Shown here one piece after another: positions 18,001 through 63,000 of a DNA stretch of 64,000 nucleotides. The stretch is from positions 10,405 through 74,404 of the forward strand of contig JAGWAD010000023.1 of the NCBI GenBank assembly GCA_018302105.1, written 5' to 3'. Position numbers: made by a program. Source of the stretch: Candidatus Woesearchaeota archaeon. Its GTDB lineage: Archaea > Nanobdellota > Nanobdellia > SCGC-AAA011-G17 > GW2011-AR18. The number at the start of each line of letters is the position of its first letter. Position 1 is the first letter of the stretch.

Positions 18001-21000
18001 TTTAAATCATTATATAAACCAAATTCTCCACTTCTTTTAGTAACTTTAGGATAACCAAGTAAATTAAGATCAGAACTATCAAAATGACCAGTTTGCGGAA
18101 GTGTTTCTAAATTTCTATAAGATTCTCCTATTTTTAATTTGTTTCCATCTAAAACTTCATCTTCCATTAATTCTGCATATTTTTCAACCATTTCATATAA
18201 AGTTTTTTTTGCTTGTGAATTTGATTCTTTTTTTAATGAAGGAATAATTAGTTGAATAATTTAGCTGCAACAAATAAATTAGGTGTTTTATCTAAATCAA
18301 CATAACCTGCTTCTTTTAGAAATTCAATATATTCTGGAGATAAAGCATTTCTTATTTCTTCTTCCCCAAATTCATATCCAACACTAAACTGATCTTTCTC
18401 TATTATTTTCTTCATAAATTTGACAAATTCTATAAATTTATAAGGTTTATTATTTTTATCACTTTATAGTTACTTACAATCAAATTTTTCACCTCAACAG
18501 TAAAGCTTAAATTGTATTCTTATGCTTGAAATAATAAAATGAATATTTCAAATATTATCTCAAAGATACATACACTAATTCTAATACCAATTGCAATTAT
18601 AATTACAGTATTATTCAAAATCTTACACATAATACATTTTTTTAAATTTATAACAATTGGATTAATTATTTCACTAATACCTGGAAAACTTGGTATGTTA
18701 ATAAGAAGATATTGGTATAAATTTTCATTAGAAAAATGTGGTAAGAATTTATTTGTAGATTTTGGTGGTACAATTAATTATAAAGAAAGCGAAATTGGAG
18801 ATAATGTTTTTATAGGATTATATAGCGAAATAGGATTAGCAAAAATAGGAAATGATGTTTTAATTTCAAGCCATGTACTAATTGGTGGCTCAAAAAATGC
18901 TCATGGAATTAAGAAAGATAAATTAATGAGACTTCAAGAAGGTAAAAATACAAAAATTGTAATAGGAAATGATGTATGGTTTGGAATGAATGCTATAGCT
19001 TTTGAAGATGTAAATAATGGAACAATAGTTGGAGCAAATAGTTTAGTAAATAAAAAATTTCAAGAATACTCAATTATCGCCGGAATATCAGCAAGGGTAA
19101 TAGGAAAAAGAAGATAATTTATTTTATCCTATTTCTGTTTATTAACCTAAAAATAAAACCTATAACCATAGATATATTATGTAAATAAGAAATAATAAAG
19201 AAATACAAAGAATAAAAACTATTTTCATACCCCTTCTTATAAGTCTTATAAAATAAAATTAAAGATTTGACTAATAAAGGAATTAAATGTAAGAATAAAG
19301 CAATAATAAATATTTTATTAATTAATGAAAGAATAATTATTAATGGAAATGCCAGAAAATAAAGCATTTTAATATTGAAGTCATTAGGATTATTTCCTTT
19401 AAGATATCCAATTTTATAACTATTTTTAATACTTAAAATAAATTCATCCTTCCACCTATGCCACCATAAGGCTTTAGGTTCATAGATGATATTATAACCA
19501 GAATTCATTATTCTTTTAGCCAGATCTATATCTTCACTATATGATTCTTTTATTCTGTATCCACCCACTTCATCATAAACTTTTTTAAATATAACCCATG
19601 CAGCAATTTTATTGTCTTTAATTTCTTTCTTAATATTTTCTATATCATCATATCTAAGTCTATATAAAGCATCTCTGTATTTAGAAATAAAATTATCTGG
19701 ATTCCAAACCCTTATTTTCCCAACAACACCTGCATTTTTTTTATTAAGGTGTTTTGTACAAAGCGATAAATAATTTTTAGCATATTTAGCATCAGCATCA
19801 ACTATAAATAAAATTTCTCCTGTAGAATGCTTTATGCCATGCAATCTAGGTCTTACACAGCCATAATTCTTGATATGTTTTATTCTATAATATTTTACAA
19901 ATTTAAATCTTTTTGCAAAACTCTGTGCTACTTTCTCTGAACCATCATTACTGCCATCATCTATAACAATAAGTTCTTTATTTTTATAATCCTGATTTAC
20001 CAAACTTGTTAAACATTCATTTAATGTATTGATTTCGTTTCTAAATGCACAGATTATTGATACCTTTTCCATTGTAAAAGAATTAGCAATATTAAGTTTA
20101 TAAGCATTGCCTCAATCACAAAAAATCTATATTGAAGAATAATCATCACTGATATGAATTTAAAATTATTTGATTTCATCAGACAAAACACGTATGAAGA
20201 AGATTTTGTAAGTTAAATAAAATGTCATTTTTAAGAATTAATTAAATAATGAAATAAACCAAATAATCACTTTTTGTAATAACCCATTTTTCTGTAAATC
20301 ATCCTCTTGTTGTGCCTCAGCTCTTTCTTGTTGTTCAGTTTTTTCTGATTGTCCTGAAGAAGTTTTATCTACTAAGGTTCTGCATTTCTCCTCACCAATG
20401 AATTGTCCATTTGTTATGCATTCTTCAGGCGGTCCATTGTCTTCAGGTTTACCTCCTTTTGGAACATTCATTAGTTCACGAATTTCTTTTCTAATTATTT
20501 TTTCAGATTCTATATTAGTGTTTATTATTGTAACTTTTGATTTATCAGAACATCCGCCTTCAATATTAGGATGAACTTCATGGAAATGTTCACAATTAGT
20601 TATGCCCTTATCATAAATGGCAACCCTTCTTAATTTTTTTAGATTATCAAGAGAAGCTAAATTACCATAAAATTTAGAACTGTCTGTTTCTGGATCAGAT
20701 AATGTTAATTCTTCTAAGTTAGTCAACCCGCTTAAAGCAGAAATATTTCCAGTAATGTTTGTCCCACTTAGATATAATGCTTTTAAATTTGTCATATGAC
20801 TTAAATCAGAAAGGTCTCCTGAAATTTTAGTATAAGTCATAGCAAAGGTATCTAAATTTATGTCTTTCAAACAAAAAATATTACCATAAATTTTCTCATC
20901 AAAAGCTAATTTTAAACTTTTTAATTCAGTAGCCTTGCTAAAAACACAAATATCCCCGTAAACATTTGGATTAGTGTGTAAATTTAAGACTTTCAGATTA

Positions 21001-60000: not shown

Positions 60001-63000
60001 ATATCTTAGATACAAAGTTGAATCTAATTCAATAGATATAAATTTCCCAGTTGTTGCATCAATTAACTTGCTTATTGGTTGTTTTCTGATAATCCACCCA
60101 ATCCCGATTATGAATAATAAAATTAAGTATTGAAACCACTGTTTATTAAAGACCTTCAAAAGTTTCTCTTTCCTTTTTATTAATTCTTCATTCATATTTC
60201 TAAAATAATAATGGTGTAATAAATACCTCCACAAAAGAACCTATAACTAAAAATAAGAAACCAATTACAATTAAAATAGAAACATCAATAGCAATCTTTC
60301 TAAATCCTTTATTTTTTGTTCCATGATTAACCAAAGCCATAGAGATTATTCCTCCAGCTAATGCTGCAATAAAATAACCTATAATTTCAAAAACTCCATG
60401 GGTCATATATCTTAAGACACCAGCAACAAACAATTGCAAATGTATTGCAATCCTTTCCAGACCAACAAGATGCGCATAATTTGCTAATCCATTCCTAAAA
60501 TAAGTTCCAATAGCAGCACTAATAACAGAAGCATTCCAGGCAAGTACAAAAATTGCACCTGCACCAAAGAAAAATGCAAATATTAAACAAAAAAACATTA
60601 CCTTGAGATTATTAATTAATATAAGTGTAAAAGCTTCACTTGAAGTTAATTTACCACTTATAACTGCACTATCAATACTTCCTAAATTTCCCATAAAAGT
60701 CACCCCGCCAATCCCCAGGTTTCTTACTACATTGCTATTAATATTATCTATAGTAACTAATTGTATTCCAAAAAGTGCATGAACTAAATCATCAGGCAGC
60801 ACAACATACACAAATGCAAAACCAACTACAAATCCAAGAAAAAGGGCAAATAAGAATTTTACAGCTTTTCCATGCTCATTTAATATACTGGCTTCAGTAT
60901 CAATCACCCAATCTTCCTCTTCCTCTTCTTTTAACGTAAAATACATCAAAGGCATTGCCATTAATACAACTAAAAACACCATAACCAAACTTGCTTCTTG
61001 TTTAAATATCCACATACTAAAAGCAGAAGCAACAAAAGCAAAAAATATTCCCAAAAAAAATACTTTTACTGGATGCTTCTTAGCGCTTATCGGGCCTGTT
61101 AAATCCTCAAAAACCATTAAGTGATTCTTACTTAATTGATTTATATAACTTTCTATGATATATGGTGTTAAGAACTAAAAGAACAAAAATTATAAATAAG
61201 AATAAATTTACAATTACATGGAAGAAAATAAATCATACAGACCAAGCTGGGTAAAAGATAAGAATATAGCCGAAGATTTTGAATTAATAAAATGTAAGTC
61301 TTATGATGGCTACAAAGATCATAAAAATGATAATGGTTGTTACATATTAATTCGTCTTTACCATGACACTTTAGAAATTGGTGCTGCTGTTTGTGATTAC
61401 AAAAATGTTATATTAAAAGAATTTAGAGGAATAAAAGCACAGGATATTTATCATGCAATATTTGAATATTCAGAAAAAAATAATAAAAAATGGTTTAATG
61501 AATTTCAACATGCAGCTTACTTAGGCAAAGAATTGAAAAAAGCAGAATTATGTTTAGTAATTGGTTGTGATTATTACCAGGAATAATTTTTCTTAACAAT
61601 ATTGCATATTAAAAAGAGATAAATAAAATTTAAAAGCGTTATTGTTATATAATAGTTATATTATTAAGATTATTAAGAGGTAAAAATGTTAATCATAGGT
61701 TGTTCAAATTCAAGAGAATTAGCAAAAAATATTTCAAAAATTCTAAATTGTGAATATTCTGAACTAAAAGTTAATAAATTTCCAGATGGAGAATTATATG
61801 TTAAATTCAATGCAGAATTGAAAAATAAAGAAATAATCTTAATCCAGACATTACATCCTTCTAATGATGCATTATTGGAATTAATATTTGCCTGTCATAC
61901 TGCAAAAGAATTAGGATGCAGAAATATAAAATTGGTTATTCCATATTTAGCATATATACGGCAGGATAAAAGATTTAATCCGGGAGAAGCAGTTTCAAGC
62001 AGAATAGTTGGTTCTTTATTAAGTTGTGTAGACGAAATTATAACAATCGATCCGCATTTGCATAGGTTTAATTCACTAAATGAAGTATTTAATACAAAAA
62101 CAAAAAAATTAACTGCAAATGAAATAATAAAAAAATTTATCTCAAAAAATTTCAAAAACCCGGTAATAATTGGACCAGACTTAGAAAGTTATCAGTGGGC
62201 AAAAAAAATAGCATTGGAAATAAATGCAGAAGCTTCAATATTAAAAAAAGAAAGATTTAGTTCAACAAAAGTAAAAGTTTCTGCTGTAAATGGTATAGAA
62301 ATAAAAAATAAAGAAGTAATAATAATAGATGATATTATTTCAACAGGAAACACAATATTAGAAGCAATAAAAAATATAAAAAAATTAAAGCCAAGATCAA
62401 TAAATGTAATTGGAATACATGGAATATTTGCAGATAAAAAAGTTTATGAAGAAATTAAAAAATCAACAAAATCAATAATAACAACAAATACAATACCAAA
62501 CAAAAATGCAAAAATTGATATATCCCAGTTAATAGCTGATTCAATAAAGAAATAATGGAAAGCTTGCAACAATACAAAAAAGAATTAGAAAGTAAGGATA
62601 ATAATATTAAGAAAAATGCAGCATTTAAATTAACAAAAGAATATTATGAAACTGATTGGAAAAAAGTAAAAGAATTATTAGAAGATAATGATCAGATAAT
62701 TAGGGAAGGCACTTCATCTGCTATTTATGAATTAACAGCTTTTGATTTATCATGGCCTGAAGAATTAATTCCAATTTTAATTAGTTTATTAAAAAAAGAC
62801 AAAAATGAAAATATAAGATCTAATTGTGCTGGAGCCTTGCATGGATTGGATATTATGGAAAGCAAATATAAGACTTCAGTTGTCTCAGGTTTAAAAGAAG
62901 CAGCAAATGATAAAAGCAAGATTATAAAAATAATGTCTTTTGATTCATTGAACCGTATAGCTTTAGATTATACTTATGTTTCTAAGCCAATACCAAAAGA

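What the first reader, a model, noticed from the sequence alone, without database searches (positions are those of the whole stretch)
18539..61117. AglB-anchored, hyper-expanded surface-glycosylation island (~42 kb, >35 genes)
The region contains AglB/STT3 (WWDYGYW), an AglH/WecA-like initiating phosphotransferase and a Wzx flippase. It also holds 7 GT2 genes (at least four Dpm1/Alg5/GtrB-like, i.e. lipid-phosphate-sugar synthases), 5 GT4 genes and 7 polytopic GT-C-like proteins. Tailoring genes include 5 SAM methyltransferases, an O-carbamoyltransferase, a membrane LbH acetyltransferase, a CE4 deacetylase, a radical-SAM/SPASM enzyme and a TrmB regulator, all tightly packed with many 4-nt ATGA overlaps. 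Characterised archaeal agl loci are far smaller, so this density in an AT-rich reduced genome predicts an unusually elaborate, carbamoylated and multiply methylated glycan.
Basis: partly seen in the sequence, partly recalled or inferred. Interest (0 to 1): 0.8.

Follow-up and report, generated by a model that had tools for sequence, protein, structure and literature searches.

The report
Large AglB-linked glycosylation island, Woesearchaeota
About 43-51 kb of this AT-rich groundwater archaeon (Woesearchaeota, DPANN) is packed almost entirely with genes for building surface sugars and attaching them to proteins; the gene calls and the assembly hold up, but large AglB-centred islands look normal for this lineage, so this is a big example of a known kind rather than a new mechanism.

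Summary
- AglB with WWDYGYW
- a DPAGT1/AglH-like initiating transferase and a Wzx flippase
- 7 GT2, four of them Dol-P-mannose-synthase-like, and 5 GT4
- 7 further GT-C proteins
- 5 methyltransferases, a NodU-type carbamoyltransferase, a membrane LbH acetyltransferase, a CE4 deacetylase, a radical-SAM/SPASM enzyme and TrmB

The contig is not chimeric. Independent assemblies tile it at 99.9-100%, and both flanks neighbour AglB in related genomes. There is no compositional HGT signal. The organism is a Woesearchaeota archaeon.

The island is 2.5-3 times larger than the characterised Haloferax agl clusters. However, relatives also have wall-to-wall glycosylation stretches of at least 22 kb.

The island splits into two parts. 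One is a roughly 12-gene core that is orthologous in relatives (SpoIIM-AglB...AglH-Wzx). The other is variable accessory modules, separated from the core by a non-glycosylation block. "One unusually elaborate glycan" is therefore not demonstrated. It probably extends left to about 9990.

The most distinctive features are eight GT-C enzymes with four Dol-P-sugar synthases, which implies much sugar addition outside the membrane, and a SpoIIM-family gene coupled to aglB across the lineage.

The parts
2300..3004 (+). cis-prenyltransferase (dolichol/polyprenol carrier synthesis); context gene outside the island
   Evidence: PF01255 E=2.3e-72; 74% identical orthologue in L006/L009
9990..11552 (+). 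FAD/NAD(P)-binding oxidoreductase of the PRK07208 family; probable left end of the island
   Evidence: NF005546 839 bits, above its cut-off of 418; weak UDP-galactopyranose-mutase tail; adjacent to AglB in L004
11554..12918 (-). B12-binding radical-SAM enzyme (class B; candidate sugar C-methylase or rearrangement enzyme)
   Evidence: PF02310 + PF04055; homologues lie within 10 kb of AglB in 34/80 related loci
12966..14048 (-). 360-aa protein of unknown function in an operon with the oxidoreductase
   Evidence: No family hit apart from weak GH88
14050..16140 (-). Fusion of a Zn-ADH-like and a GFO/IDH/MocA oxidoreductase (sugar or sugar-nucleotide oxidation)
   Evidence: PF00107 + PF01408; C-terminal part resembles archaeal UDP-GlcNAc 3-dehydrogenase, E=4.5e-18, below cut-off
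16251..17501 (+). Nucleotide-sugar 6-dehydrogenase
   Evidence: TIGR03026 300 bits, above its cut-off of 189.8; closest equivalog is archaeal UDP-ManNAc dehydrogenase, below cut-off
17503..17838 (+). 4'-phosphopantetheinyl transferase (ACPS)
   Evidence: PF01648 E=8.5e-17
18539..19117 (+). Membrane-anchored hexapeptide (LbH) O-acetyltransferase, WbbJ-like
   Evidence: PF00132; NF007240 WbbJ E=1.4e-14, below cut-off; 2 N-terminal TM helices
19119..20072 (-). GT2_a, a non-Dpm1-type GT2 with 2 C-terminal TM helices
   Evidence: PF00535 E=2.3e-29; best NCBIfam matches are EpsD/PgaC-type; a same-length (317-aa) GT2 gene sits next to the DUF6798 gene in a relative
20238..21275 (-). Leucine-rich-repeat surface protein; not a glycosylation enzyme and a possible substrate
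   Evidence: LRR_4 E=5.6e-10; 345 aa here versus 378/379 aa in other assemblies; no gene is called in the 79-nt gap between the GT2 and the DUF6798 gene in the relative
21476..23242 (+). GT-C-fold membrane glycosyltransferase of the DUF6798 family
   Evidence: 11 TM helices; PF20604; 63-sequence profile versus PMT2_a 97.2% over 492 columns, controls below 1%; Asp28 after TM1 conserved in at least 90% of sequences
23282..24940 (+). PMT2_a, a GT-C (PMT_2/PMT) glycosyltransferase using a polyprenyl-P-sugar donor
   Evidence: PF13231 E=2.2e-10, PF02366 E=1e-7; DE motif after TM1; homologue directly downstream of AglB in L006/L007/L009
24937..25818 (+). GT2_b, a Dpm1/GtrB/AglJ-like polyprenyl-phosphate sugar synthase with 2 C-terminal TM helices
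   Evidence: PF00535; TIGR04182 AglJ E=2.2e-46 full length, below cut-off; top PDB hit 5MLZ Dol-P-Man synthase 4.8e-21, then GtrB and ArnC
25815..26726 (+). MprF-type 'flippase-like' membrane protein; candidate Dol-P-sugar flippase
   Evidence: PF03706 E=8e-27; 7 TM helices; ATGA-coupled to GT2_b
26703..27269 (-). MT_a, a SAM methyltransferase
   Evidence: PF08241 E=5.4e-12
27250..28362 (-). GT4_a
   Evidence: PF00534 E=9.9e-36
28343..30025 (-). NodU/CmcH-type O-carbamoyltransferase
   Evidence: PF16861 E=1e-61 + PF02543 E=1e-45; NodU E=2.5e-45, below cut-off; homologues near AglB in 3/80 loci
30109..31236 (+). GT4_b
   Evidence: PF00534 E=5.3e-28
31226..32935 (-). PMT2_b, a GT-C
   Evidence: PF13231 E=3.4e-13; 10 TM helices; DE motif
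33021..33716 (+). GT2_c, a Dpm1-like soluble polyprenyl-P-sugar synthase
   Evidence: PF00535; top PDB hit 5MLZ 2.9e-13
33745..34890 (+). GT4_c
   Evidence: PF00534 E=1.5e-31
34887..36002 (+). GT4_d
   Evidence: PF00534 E=2.5e-35
35968..36438 (+). SET-domain protein embedded in the GT operon; role unclear
   Evidence: PF00856 E=9.7e-15
36611..37525 (+). GT2_d, a non-Dpm1-type GT2
   Evidence: PF13641/PF00535; 73% identical orthologue next to a PMT_2 gene in L095
37669..39180 (+). PMT2_c, a GT-C
   Evidence: PF13231 E=1.5e-18; DE motif
39177..39905 (-). MT_b, a SAM methyltransferase
   Evidence: PF08241 E=1.7e-23
39906..41027 (-). Radical-SAM/SPASM enzyme
   Evidence: PF13186 E=1.7e-20 + PF04055; homologues near AglB in 12/80 loci
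41140..43510 (.). Non-glycosylation block separating the two halves: EF-hand protein (+), RluA-type pseudouridine synthase (-), 142-aa unknown (-), TrmB regulator (+)
   Evidence: no counterparts in the AglB neighbourhoods of relatives, except TrmB in 1/80
43550..44365 (-). GT2_e, a non-Dpm1-type GT2
   Evidence: PF00535 E=3.1e-25
44362..45456 (-). GT4_e
   Evidence: PF00534 E=3.6e-40
45453..46211 (-). GT2_f, Dpm1-like; part of the conserved core
   Evidence: PF00535; top PDB hit 5MLZ 1.1e-13; 61-68% identical orthologues in L001/L095/L097
46177..47466 (-). Wzx/AglR-type MOP flippase; core
   Evidence: PF01943 + PF13440; 10 TM helices by hydropathy; 46-68% identical orthologues
47439..48443 (-). 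AglH/DPAGT1-like polyprenyl-phosphate HexNAc-1-P transferase (initiating enzyme); core
   Evidence: PF00953 E=1.4e-32; best PDB match DPAGT1 3e-15 versus MraY 1e-8; within 10 kb of AglB in 36/80 loci
48483..50012 (-). PMT2_d, a GT-C; core
   Evidence: PF13231 E=2.6e-11; 48-57% identical orthologues in L001/L002
50051..52051 (+). PTPS_related/YfhO-like GT-C (the 666-aa ORF with no Pfam hit)
   Evidence: hhalign 97.3% to PTPSrel over 456 columns; homologues carry PF10131/PF09586
52087..52950 (+). MT_c, a SAM methyltransferase
   Evidence: PF13489 E=4.5e-23
52947..53690 (-). GT2_g, Dpm1-like; core
   Evidence: PF00535 E=8e-34; top PDB hit 5MLZ 2.3e-18; 63-75% identical orthologues
53738..55149 (-). 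MT_d and MT_e, two SAM methyltransferases; core
   Evidence: orthologues at 62-77% and 47-49% identity
55136..55942 (-). CE4 polysaccharide deacetylase; core
   Evidence: PF01522 + DUF3473; 53-63% identical orthologues
55944..57431 (-). PTPS_related GT-C directly downstream of aglB; core
   Evidence: PF10131, 28.2 bits against a cut-off of 26.4; immediate downstream neighbour of AglB in 10/77 loci
57433..60195 (-). AglB oligosaccharyltransferase (920 aa from the ATG)
   Evidence: PF02516 E=3.6e-14; WWDYGYW, ELDS and DHD motifs; 80 Woesearchaeota/Nanoarchaeia homologues
60200..61117 (-). SpoIIM-family 6-TM membrane protein, translationally coupled upstream of aglB
   Evidence: PF01944 E=3.1e-12; immediate same-strand upstream neighbour of AglB in 27/75 loci, mostly with 1-25 nt gaps

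Best explanation
This is the native surface-glycosylation island of a Woesearchaeota (DPANN) archaeon. It sits at a conserved chromosomal position between the ThrRS block and the SpoIIM-PterinBD-PRPP synthase block. It has two layers.

1. Conserved N-glycosylation core (about 43.5-61.1 kb)
- AglH starts a dolichol-(pyro)phosphate-linked glycan with a HexNAc-1-phosphate.
- Cytoplasmic GT2 and GT4 enzymes extend it, and Wzx flips it.
- AglB transfers it to Asn of secreted proteins.
- Dpm1-like GT2_f and GT2_g make Dol-P-monosaccharides. The GT-C enzymes PMT2_d, the 666-aa YfhO-like protein and the PTPS-related protein use these to add sugars on the outer face.
- Three methyltransferases and a CE4 deacetylase tailor the product.

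2. Variable accessory modules (about 10-41 kb)
- Sugar-nucleotide oxidoreductases.
- Four GT4 and four GT2, including two further Dol-P-sugar synthases.
- Four further GT-C enzymes and an MprF-type flippase-like protein.
- A NodU-type carbamoyltransferase, an acetyltransferase, methyltransferases and radical-SAM enzymes.
- These either further decorate the same glycan or glycosylate other surface acceptors.

Shown versus inferred: family membership, gene order, conservation and assembly integrity are shown. Donor and acceptor specificities, the order of steps, and the assignment of accessory modules to the N-glycan are inferred.
For: - GT-C status of the three unassigned polytopic proteins comes.
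- AglB catalytic motifs are present.
- Taxonomy and conservation: all 80 AglB relatives are Woesearchaeota/Nanoarchaeia. L001 and L002 are collinear with the window over unk129, PRPPs, PterinBD, SpoIIM, AglB, PTPSrel, CE4, MT, MT, GT2_g and PMT2_d; L001 continues through AglH, Wzx and GT2_f.
- L006 and L009 have Rpp30, cisPT, ThrRS and unk161 directly followed by AglB, PMT2_a and GT2_b. Both window flanks are therefore AglB neighbours elsewhere.
- Left-half families recur near AglB in relatives: B12-rSAM 34/80, PMT_2 22/80, rSAM-SPASM 12/80, LPG_synthase_TM 7/80, carbamoyltransferase 3/80.
- There is only one initiating transferase, one Wzx and one AglB in 51 kb.
- Composition is uniform.
- Independent assemblies tile the window.
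- Precedent for outside-face addition from Dol-P-sugar to an N-glycan: Hfx. volcanii AglD/AglR/AglS (PMC3871713).
Against: - There are no biochemical data. All specific equivalog models score below their cut-offs, so sugar identities are unknown.
- The accessory half shows no close orthologues in the sampled parts of relatives. It is separated from the core by a pseudouridine synthase/TrmB block, so its link to AglB is by proximity and family recurrence only.
- GT-C/Dpm1 sets are known elsewhere to act on lipids, teichoic acids or Ser/Thr rather than N-glycans (PMC5836110, PMC8035078).
- The total island length in relatives could not be measured, because only +-10 kb was retrievable.
Confidence: 0.7

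Rival explanations
1. One reading: the whole 42-kb region is one pathway that builds a single, unusually elaborate, carbamoylated and multiply methylated N-glycan.
For: - A single AglH, a single Wzx and a single AglB serve about 20 glycosyltransferases.
- Packing is tight, with 96.6% coding density and ATGA overlaps.
- Accessory families recur next to AglB in relatives.
Against: - The region has 14 strand runs and a non-glycosylation block at 41.1-43.5 kb.
- Only the right half is orthologously conserved.
- Characterised archaea make two or more different N-glycans from separate clusters with one AglB (PMC3871713; PMC11407970).
- Dpm1/GT-C/flippase sets work as autonomous decoration systems in bacteria (PMC8035078).
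Confidence: 0.2
2. Much of the island makes non-N-linked glycoconjugates, such as O-mannosylated proteins, glycolipid or lipoglycan, or a Wzx-dependent surface polysaccharide. On this reading AglB is only a neighbour.
For: - PMT2_a also matches the PMT protein O-mannosyltransferase family (PF02366, 32.2 bits) and carries the DE motif.
- Homologues of the 666-aa protein match YfhO, which glycosylates lipoteichoic acid (PMC5836110).
- A few relatives of the DUF6798 protein weakly match EpsG (Wzy-like) or GtrII.
Against: - No Wzy, chain-length regulator or ABC exporter was detected by Pfam.
- The only initiating enzyme is DPAGT1/AglH-like and belongs to the conserved AglB core.
- PMT2_a and GT2_b sit directly downstream of AglB in three relatives.
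Confidence: 0.2
3. The island is a recently acquired horizontally transferred or mobile element.
For: - Gene content differs strongly between relatives.
- A tyrosine recombinase gene lies just beyond the right end of the window.
- An IS240 transposase sits inside the island of a co-occurring relative.
Against: - GC3 and tetranucleotide usage are indistinguishable from the flanks, with r=0.993 and no outlying 5-kb window.
- There are no flanking direct repeats, tRNA genes, IS elements or integrase genes inside the window.
- The core is orthologous and collinear in relatives at the same chromosomal position.
Confidence: 0.07
4. The island is an assembly chimera joining unrelated loci.
For: None was found. 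The contig is a metagenomic assembly.
Against: - Assemblies from other samples and other pipelines overlap every junction at 99.9-100% identity: 29-21395 (L092), 18252-35818 (L090/L091), 34504-53510 (L086) and 47433-64000 (L081).
- Both flanks are conserved AglB neighbours in relatives.
Confidence: 0.01

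Closest known systems
aglB-based N-glycosylation gene clusters of Archaea, e.g. Haloferax volcanii HVO_1517-1531 (aglJ...aglB...aglM) with AglD/AglR/AglS
   Same: - The oligosaccharyltransferase gene is clustered with GT2 and GT4 glycosyltransferases, a Wzx-like flippase, a methyltransferase and a nucleotide-sugar dehydrogenase.
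- A Dpm1-like enzyme plus a membrane transferase add a sugar from Dol-P-sugar outside the cell.
- Cluster content varies between close relatives (PMC3871713, PMC5867893, PMC11407970).
   Different: - It is 2.5-3 times larger: 39-46 ORFs versus 15-16 locus tags.
- Initiation is DPAGT1/AglH-type, rather than the AglJ-type Dol-P-hexose initiation of Haloferax.
- It has 8 GT-C enzymes and 4 Dol-P-sugar synthases, where Haloferax has one AglS/AglD pair.
- It adds a carbamoyltransferase, radical-SAM enzymes and a coupled SpoIIM-family gene.
- No member has been studied experimentally.
Bacterial three-component transmembrane glycosylation systems (CsbB/GtcA/YfhO; GtrB/GtrA/Gtr-type; ArnC/ArnEF/ArnT)
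   Same: Each pairs a cytoplasmic Dpm1-like GT2 that loads a polyprenyl phosphate with a small flippase and a GT-C enzyme acting outside the membrane. The PMT2_a-GT2_b-LPG_synthase_TM operon (23282-26726) and the YfhO/PTPS-like proteins fit this layout (PMC5836110, PMC8035078).
   Different: - The organism is archaeal, so the carrier would be dolichol phosphate.
- The candidate flippase is MprF-type rather than GtrA/GtcA-type.
- Acceptors are unknown, and archaea lack teichoic acids and LPS.
- Several such sets are concentrated next to AglB.
Eukaryotic ER-lumen stage of N-glycan assembly (ALG3/9/12/6/8/10 GT-C enzymes with DPM1/ALG5 donors, DPAGT1 initiation, STT3 transfer)
   Same: The logic is the same: DPAGT1-like initiation, cytoplasmic extension, flipping, then multiple GT-C enzymes using Dol-P-sugars, then an STT3-family transferase.
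   Different: The GT-C enzymes here belong to the PMT_2, PTPS_related/YfhO and DUF6798 families, not to the ALG families. No homology to the ALG GT-C enzymes was shown. Whether these enzymes act before or after transfer to protein is unknown.
Hypervariable surface-glycan islands (bacterial O-antigen loci; Haloquadratum and Haloferax glycosylation islands)
   Same: The position between conserved flanks is fixed, while content is variable between relatives. Such variation is thought to be driven by viruses or by partner recognition (PMC5867893).
   Different: There is no compositional anomaly here, whereas such islands are often atypical in GC. The host is a putatively symbiotic DPANN archaeon.

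Membership tests
AglB/STT3 oligosaccharyltransferase | Significant match to the STT3 family model | tested here: met
   PF02516 scores 53.6 bits against a cut-off of 24.5. PDB hits are STT3A/B and archaeal AglB C-terminal domains at about 1e-9.
AglB/STT3 oligosaccharyltransferase | WWDYG motif at the start of the extracytoplasmic domain | tested here: met
   AHWWDYGYW is present and aligns with WWDYGYQ of human STT3B.
AglB/STT3 oligosaccharyltransferase | Catalytic acidic residues in the first external loop (D, DxD/DxE) | tested here: met
   ELDS aligns with EFDP, and STDHD aligns with SFDNE of STT3B.
AglB/STT3 oligosaccharyltransferase | About 13 N-terminal TM helices followed by a soluble C-terminal domain | tested here: met
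   Hydropathy predicts 13 segments up to about residue 600, followed by a roughly 330-aa hydrophilic domain. This is a crude predictor.
AglB/STT3 oligosaccharyltransferase | DK or MI motif forming the Ser/Thr pocket | tested here: inconclusive
   A GDEIGK...SSI stretch exists, but it was not aligned to a solved AglB pocket.
Archaeosortase-A-associated AglB subfamily (TIGR04154) | Score above the curated cut-off | tested here: not met
   The score is 99.8 bits against a cut-off of 450, so the protein is not a member of that subfamily.
AglH/DPAGT1-type polyprenyl-phosphate HexNAc-1-P transferase (PNPT) | PF00953 domain in a polytopic membrane protein | tested here: met
   The score is 113.3 bits against a cut-off of 27, and hydropathy predicts 7 or more TM helices.
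AglH/DPAGT1-type polyprenyl-phosphate HexNAc-1-P transferase (PNPT) | Closer to GPT/DPAGT1 than to MraY | tested here: met
   DPAGT1 scores 3e-15 versus MraY at 1.3e-8 or weaker. The MraY equivalog models score far below their cut-offs.
AglH/DPAGT1-type polyprenyl-phosphate HexNAc-1-P transferase (PNPT) | Transfers GlcNAc-1-P to dolichol phosphate | not testable with these tools
   This requires an enzyme assay or complementation of alg7 or aglH.
Wzx/AglR MOP-superfamily flippase | Polysacc_synt domains in a polytopic protein | tested here: met
   PF01943 scores 52.2 bits and PF13440 scores 51.2 bits, both above their cut-offs. Hydropathy finds 10 TM helices.
Dpm1/GtrB/ArnC/AglJ-type polyprenyl-phosphate sugar synthases (claimed for four GT2) | Best similarity is to characterised polyprenyl-P sugar synthases, over the full catalytic domain | tested here: met
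   For the GT2s at 24937, 33021, 45453 and 52947, the top PDB hit is 5MLZ Dol-P-Man synthase (4.8e-21 to 2.9e-13), followed by GtrB and ArnC.
Dpm1/GtrB/ArnC/AglJ-type polyprenyl-phosphate sugar synthases (claimed for four GT2) | Score above a curated equivalog cut-off (AglJ, Dol-P-hexose transferase, PpgS, ArnC) | tested here: not met
   All scores are below the cut-offs; for example, AglJ scores 158.6 against 325. The family-level resemblance holds, but the specific function is not assigned.
GT-C fold glycosyltransferases (seven besides AglB) | Match to a GT-C family model or profile | tested here: met
   - PMT_2 scores above the cut-off for four proteins, and PTPS_related scores 28.2 against 26.4.
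- The 666-aa ORF: hhalign gives 97.3% to PTPSrel, and its homologues carry PF10131/PF09586.
- The DUF6798 family profile gives 97.2% over 492 columns to PMT2_a.
GT-C fold glycosyltransferases (seven besides AglB) | Eight or more TM helices with an acidic residue in the first external loop | tested here: met
   All seven have 8-12 TM helices. Acidic motifs follow TM1: DE in PMT2_a/b/c, and D28 is conserved in at least 90% of the DUF6798 family.
GT-C fold glycosyltransferases (seven besides AglB) | The GT-C fold itself | tested here: inconclusive
   The AF2 model of the DUF6798 protein from a 3-sequence alignment had pLDDT 42.9, so no fold search was run.
NodU/CmcH O-carbamoyltransferase | Both the Carbam_trans_N and Carbam_trans_C domains | tested here: met
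   The two domains score 157.1 and 207.8 bits, far above their cut-offs. The NodU equivalog scores below its cut-off.
aglB-based N-glycosylation gene cluster | aglB is contiguous with glycosyltransferase, flippase and sugar-processing genes, and the association is conserved in relatives | tested here: met
   See for the window. In 80 relatives, the families found within 10 kb of AglB are GT2 in 53, methyltransferase in 43, AglH in 36, PMT_2 in 22, and Wzx in 16.

The most novel reading that the evidence does not exclude
Woesearchaeota may run an N-glycosylation pathway in which most elaboration happens outside the membrane. Up to seven GT-C enzymes would be fed by four Dol-P-sugar synthases, with an MprF-type flippase-like protein moving the donors. 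This would be a prokaryotic counterpart of the ER-lumen ALG stage. In the same reading, the oligosaccharyltransferase works with a previously unrecognised partner, a SpoIIM-family membrane protein. That gene is translationally coupled upstream of aglB in 27 of 75 lineage members, down to about 35% AglB identity.
Probability: 0.3. Interest if true: 0.65.

Novelty: new member of a known kind. Interest (0 to 1): 0.4.

Why it matters
DPANN archaea are tiny and mostly symbiotic, and their contact with hosts and viruses goes through the cell surface. In the literature searched, their protein glycosylation has not been studied.

This locus shows three things:
- A Woesearchaeota archaeon devotes about 50 kb of contiguous sequence to glycosylation.
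- A conserved AglB core can be separated from variable accessory modules.
- Extracytoplasmic GT-C / Dol-P-sugar chemistry is unusually prominent.

It also yields concrete, testable candidates for long-open questions. The MprF-like protein coupled to a Dpm1-like enzyme is a candidate Dol-P-sugar flippase. The SpoIIM-family protein is a candidate partner of the archaeal oligosaccharyltransferase.

As a finding in itself it is an annotation-level extension of the known aglB-cluster concept, not a new mechanism.

Tried and rejected
- **Chimeric assembly: rejected.** Exact-protein look-ups found the same genes on more than 20 contigs from several samples and assemblers, and blastn tiling covers every junction.
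- **Compositional HGT signal: none.** GC, GC3 and tetranucleotide usage show nothing. There are no att-like repeats, tRNAs or mobile-element genes in the window.
- **Non-coding RNAs: none.** The Rfam scan found nothing.
- **Nested antisense ORFs of 100 aa or more:** six genes carry one, against 5.8 expected from codon shuffles, so they are chance ORFs.
- **Direct PDB sequence searches:** the three unassigned polytopic proteins gave nothing. The DUF6798 family profile also found no solved structure.
- **AF2 model of the DUF6798 protein:** a 3-sequence alignment gave pLDDT 42.9, so it was not used.
- **Word-indexed homologue search:** it made the DUF6798 protein look rare, with only 3 hits. The exhaustive search found 469 relatives, so 'rare' was an artefact.
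- **Sequon enrichment in neighbouring secreted proteins:** uninformative, except for one 195-aa protein.
- **A small ORF next to ACPS as a carrier protein:** there is nothing to support this.
- **Carbamoyltransferase look-up:** it failed because my guessed start codon was wrong.

Full report
**What is there**

The window is uniformly AT-rich, with 22-30% GC in 2-kb windows. It has no tRNA genes and no Rfam matches.

I scanned every ORF of at least 100 aa in 5603-64000 that is not nested in a longer ORF, and most of those further left, against Pfam. Region 18539-61117 holds 39 ORFs at 96.6% coding density, arranged in 14 strand runs.
- Seven GT2 and five GT4.
- AglB: STT3 E=3.6e-14, with the WWDYGYW motif.
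- A PF00953 initiating transferase and a Wzx-type flippase.
- Four PMT_2 proteins and a PTPS_related protein.
- Five class-I methyltransferases.
- A two-domain carbamoyltransferase.
- A hexapeptide acetyltransferase with two N-terminal TM helices.
- A CE4 deacetylase, a radical-SAM/SPASM enzyme and a TrmB regulator.

Five genuine ATGA start/stop overlaps lie inside the island.

**Checks on the less secure calls**

- AglB aligns with human STT3B across the loop-1 Asp, the DxD-type motif (DHD versus DNE) and WWDYG.
- The initiating enzyme is closer to human DPAGT1 (3e-15) than to MraY (1e-8 or weaker).
- Four GT2 proteins (24937, 33021, 45453, 52947) have Pyrococcus Dol-P-mannose synthase as their top solved relative, then GtrB and ArnC. 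They align full-length to Dol-P-hexose transferase, AglJ, PpgS and ArnC models. All of these scores are below the equivalog cut-offs, so the sugar specificities are unknown.
- The 666-aa ORF has no Pfam hit. Profile-profile comparison places it in the PTPS_related/YfhO GT-C group: 97.3% to the PTPS_related paralogue over 456 columns, and 94% to PMT2_a. Its homologues carry PF10131/PF09586.
- The DUF6798 protein looked orphan in the word-indexed search, but the exhaustive search found 469 relatives. A 63-sequence profile of that family aligns to PMT2_a over 492 columns at 97.2%, against less than 1% for the control membrane proteins. Its DUF6798 domain aligns to the AglB segment 627-711, which holds the WWDYG motif, at 95%.
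- Asp28, just after TM1 in the DUF6798 protein, is conserved in at least 90% of the family.
- All seven candidates have 8-12 TM helices and an acidic motif after TM1.

The count of seven GT-C proteins besides AglB therefore stands.

**Organism and assembly**

AglB relatives in the species-representative genome set are all Woesearchaeota, Nanoarchaeia or unclassified DPANN-type MAGs. The best is 62% identical. The flanks encode archaeal housekeeping proteins: RNase P Pop5 and Rpp30, a cis-prenyltransferase, ThrRS and PRPP synthase.

Exact copies of window proteins occur on more than 20 contigs from several ENA and JGI samples and assemblers. One of these is a 64,023-bp scaffold that is probably the source of the window. 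blastn shows the window tiled at 99.9-100% by other assemblies, with overlaps across every junction. This rules out a chimera. Only small strain differences were seen:
- a roughly 156-bp indel at about 18255;
- LRR repeat-number variation;
- two nonsense SNPs in one scaffold.

**Conservation**

I compared window proteins with ORFs of the 80 related loci.

L001 and L002 are collinear with the right part of the window: unk129, PRPPs, PterinBD, SpoIIM, AglB, PTPSrel, CE4, MT, MT, GT2_g and PMT2_d in both. L001 continues with AglH, Wzx and GT2_f. Identities are 47-82%.

L006 and L009 have the window's left flank (Rpp30, cisPT, ThrRS, unk161) directly followed by AglB, PMT2_a and GT2_b. Both flanks of the window's island are therefore AglB neighbours elsewhere. 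The island occupies a conserved chromosomal slot whose content varies.

The sugar-nucleotide genes at 9990-17838 lie inside that slot:
- a PRK07208-family flavoprotein;
- a B12-radical-SAM enzyme;
- a GFO/ADH fusion oxidoreductase;
- a nucleotide-sugar dehydrogenase.

The functional island is probably about 51 kb with 46 ORFs.

About 12 genes form an orthologous core. The left half (18.5-36.4 kb) and the central EF-hand / pseudouridine synthase / unknown / TrmB block have no close counterparts in the sampled regions of seven relatives.

Even so, the left-half families recur near AglB across the lineage. Counts out of 80 loci are B12-rSAM 34, PMT_2 22, rSAM-SPASM 12, LPG_synthase_TM 7 and carbamoyltransferase 3. 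A 62%-identical DUF6798 gene elsewhere again sits beside a 317-aa GT2, the same length as GT2_a.

**Is it hyper-expanded?**

Against characterised systems, yes. The Haloferax volcanii clusters span HVO_1517-1531 and HVO_2046-2061 (PMC3871713).

Against its own lineage, this is not shown. In loci with at least 15 ORFs, glycosylation-family genes make up as much as 75% of the +-10 kb around AglB, and clusters often reach the locus edges. Two relatives show 22-kb wall-to-wall glycosylation stretches that do not even contain AglB. I could not retrieve more than +-10 kb per locus, so full lengths remain unmeasured.

**HGT test**

GC3 is 0.10-0.24 in both island and flank genes. Tetranucleotide correlation between island and flanks is 0.993, and every 5-kb window correlates at 0.973-0.993 with the rest. 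There are no flanking repeats or mobile-element genes inside the window.

The content turnover between relatives is therefore old, or occurs by exchange among compositionally similar genomes.

**Mechanism (inferred)**

1. AglH initiates on dolichol phosphate.
2. Cytoplasmic GT4 and GT2 enzymes extend the glycan.
3. Methyl, carbamoyl, acetyl and deacetyl tailoring occurs.
4. Wzx flips the lipid-linked glycan.
5. Four Dpm1-like enzymes generate Dol-P-sugars. The MprF-like protein, which is ATGA-coupled to GT2_b, may flip them.
6. GT-C enzymes add these sugars outside the membrane.
7. AglB transfers the glycan to Asn.

The Haloferax AglD/AglR/AglS step is the archaeal precedent for outside addition (PMC3871713). 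The bacterial CsbB/GtcA/YfhO and Gtr/Arn systems are the mechanistic analogues (PMC5836110, PMC8035078).

Sequence alone cannot decide whether the accessory modules serve the same N-glycan or other acceptors. I rate the composite reading above the single-elaborate-glycan reading.

**Literature**

Variable aglB-proximal clusters and glycosylation islands are well documented in haloarchaea (PMC5867893, PMC11407970). Searches found nothing on Woesearchaeota or DPANN agl islands, nor on a SpoIIM-AglB link.

**Verdict**

This is a large, well-assembled, native member of the known class of AglB-based glycosylation clusters. It is notable for its GT-C / Dol-P-sugar richness and for the conserved SpoIIM-aglB coupling. 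Interest is moderate.

Noticed in passing
window 60200-61117 (-), and L001-L080: A SpoIIM-family (PF01944) 6-TM protein lies immediately upstream of aglB on the same strand. The same arrangement, mostly with 1-25 nt gaps, occurs in 27 of 75 related loci, and a homologue lies within 10 kb in 36 of 80. No paper in the library links SpoIIM with AglB. It may be a partner of the oligosaccharyltransferase.
   Followed up: partly
window 11554-12918 (-), and related loci: B12-binding radical-SAM genes lie within 10 kb of AglB in 34 of 80 Woesearchaeota loci. That makes this family about as frequent an AglB neighbour as AglH and SpoIIM (36 each). The role is unknown.
   Followed up: partly
window 20238-21275 (-): An LRR surface-protein gene is embedded among the glycosyltransferase genes. 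It is 345 aa here but 378-379 aa in other assemblies of the same population, which indicates repeat-number variation near 20374-20433. In a relative with a 62%-identical DUF6798 protein, no gene is called between the GT2 and DUF6798 genes.
   Followed up: partly
window ~18255: Other assemblies of the same organism carry about 156 extra bases here. This lengthens a 101-aa hypothetical ORF to 150 aa and a 55-aa ORF to 73 aa. It is a strain-level indel at the boundary between the sugar-nucleotide genes and the GT genes.
   Followed up: partly
L087 (= window 32780-49206): One scaffold from another sample differs by a few SNPs. Two of them, at window 38902 (G>T) and 40445 (C>A), lie near where its gene calls for the PMT_2 gene and the radical-SAM/SPASM gene are split. 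This could be pseudogenisation in a strain or consensus error. The scaffold also has N-gaps.
   Followed up: partly
window 35968-36438 (+): A SET-domain (lysine methyltransferase-type) gene overlaps the end of GT4_d inside a glycosyltransferase operon. This is an odd context for a chromatin-type methyltransferase.
   Followed up: no
window 41140-42670: An EF-hand protein, an RluA-type pseudouridine synthase with an S4 domain and a 142-aa unknown sit in the middle of the island. None has a counterpart near AglB in the 80 relatives.
   Followed up: no
window 21476-23242 (+), residues 471-566: The DUF6798 domain is homologous to the AglB segment 627-711, which contains the WWDYG motif (hhalign 95%; shared W-x-x-E-N-T...F pattern). 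This suggests that this domain of unknown function is the start of an STT3-like extracytoplasmic domain.
   Followed up: partly
just beyond window end (L081 5405-6142), and L097 20392-21306: A 245-aa tyrosine recombinase gene lies about 55 nt past the right end of the window. No ORF of that size occupies the equivalent position in the closest relative, L001. A co-occurring relative has an IS240 transposase inside its glycosylation island.
   Followed up: no
window 5019-7546 (-): A 195-aa protein with an N-terminal TM helix has 8 N-X-S/T sequons against 2.8 expected. It is co-transcribed with a 647-aa MG2-domain surface protein. Both are candidate glycoprotein substrates.
   Followed up: no
window 17503-17838 (+): A 4'-phosphopantetheinyl transferase gene directly follows the nucleotide-sugar dehydrogenase gene, but no carrier-protein gene was recognisable nearby.
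   Followed up: partly
window 6057-6569, 10547-10885, 26144-26605, 34488-34883, 51181-51492, 52314-52658: Long ORFs of 103-170 aa are nested antisense within real genes, all in the same antisense frame. Codon-shuffle simulation expects 5.8 genes with such an ORF and 6 are observed, so they are chance ORFs.
   Followed up: yes
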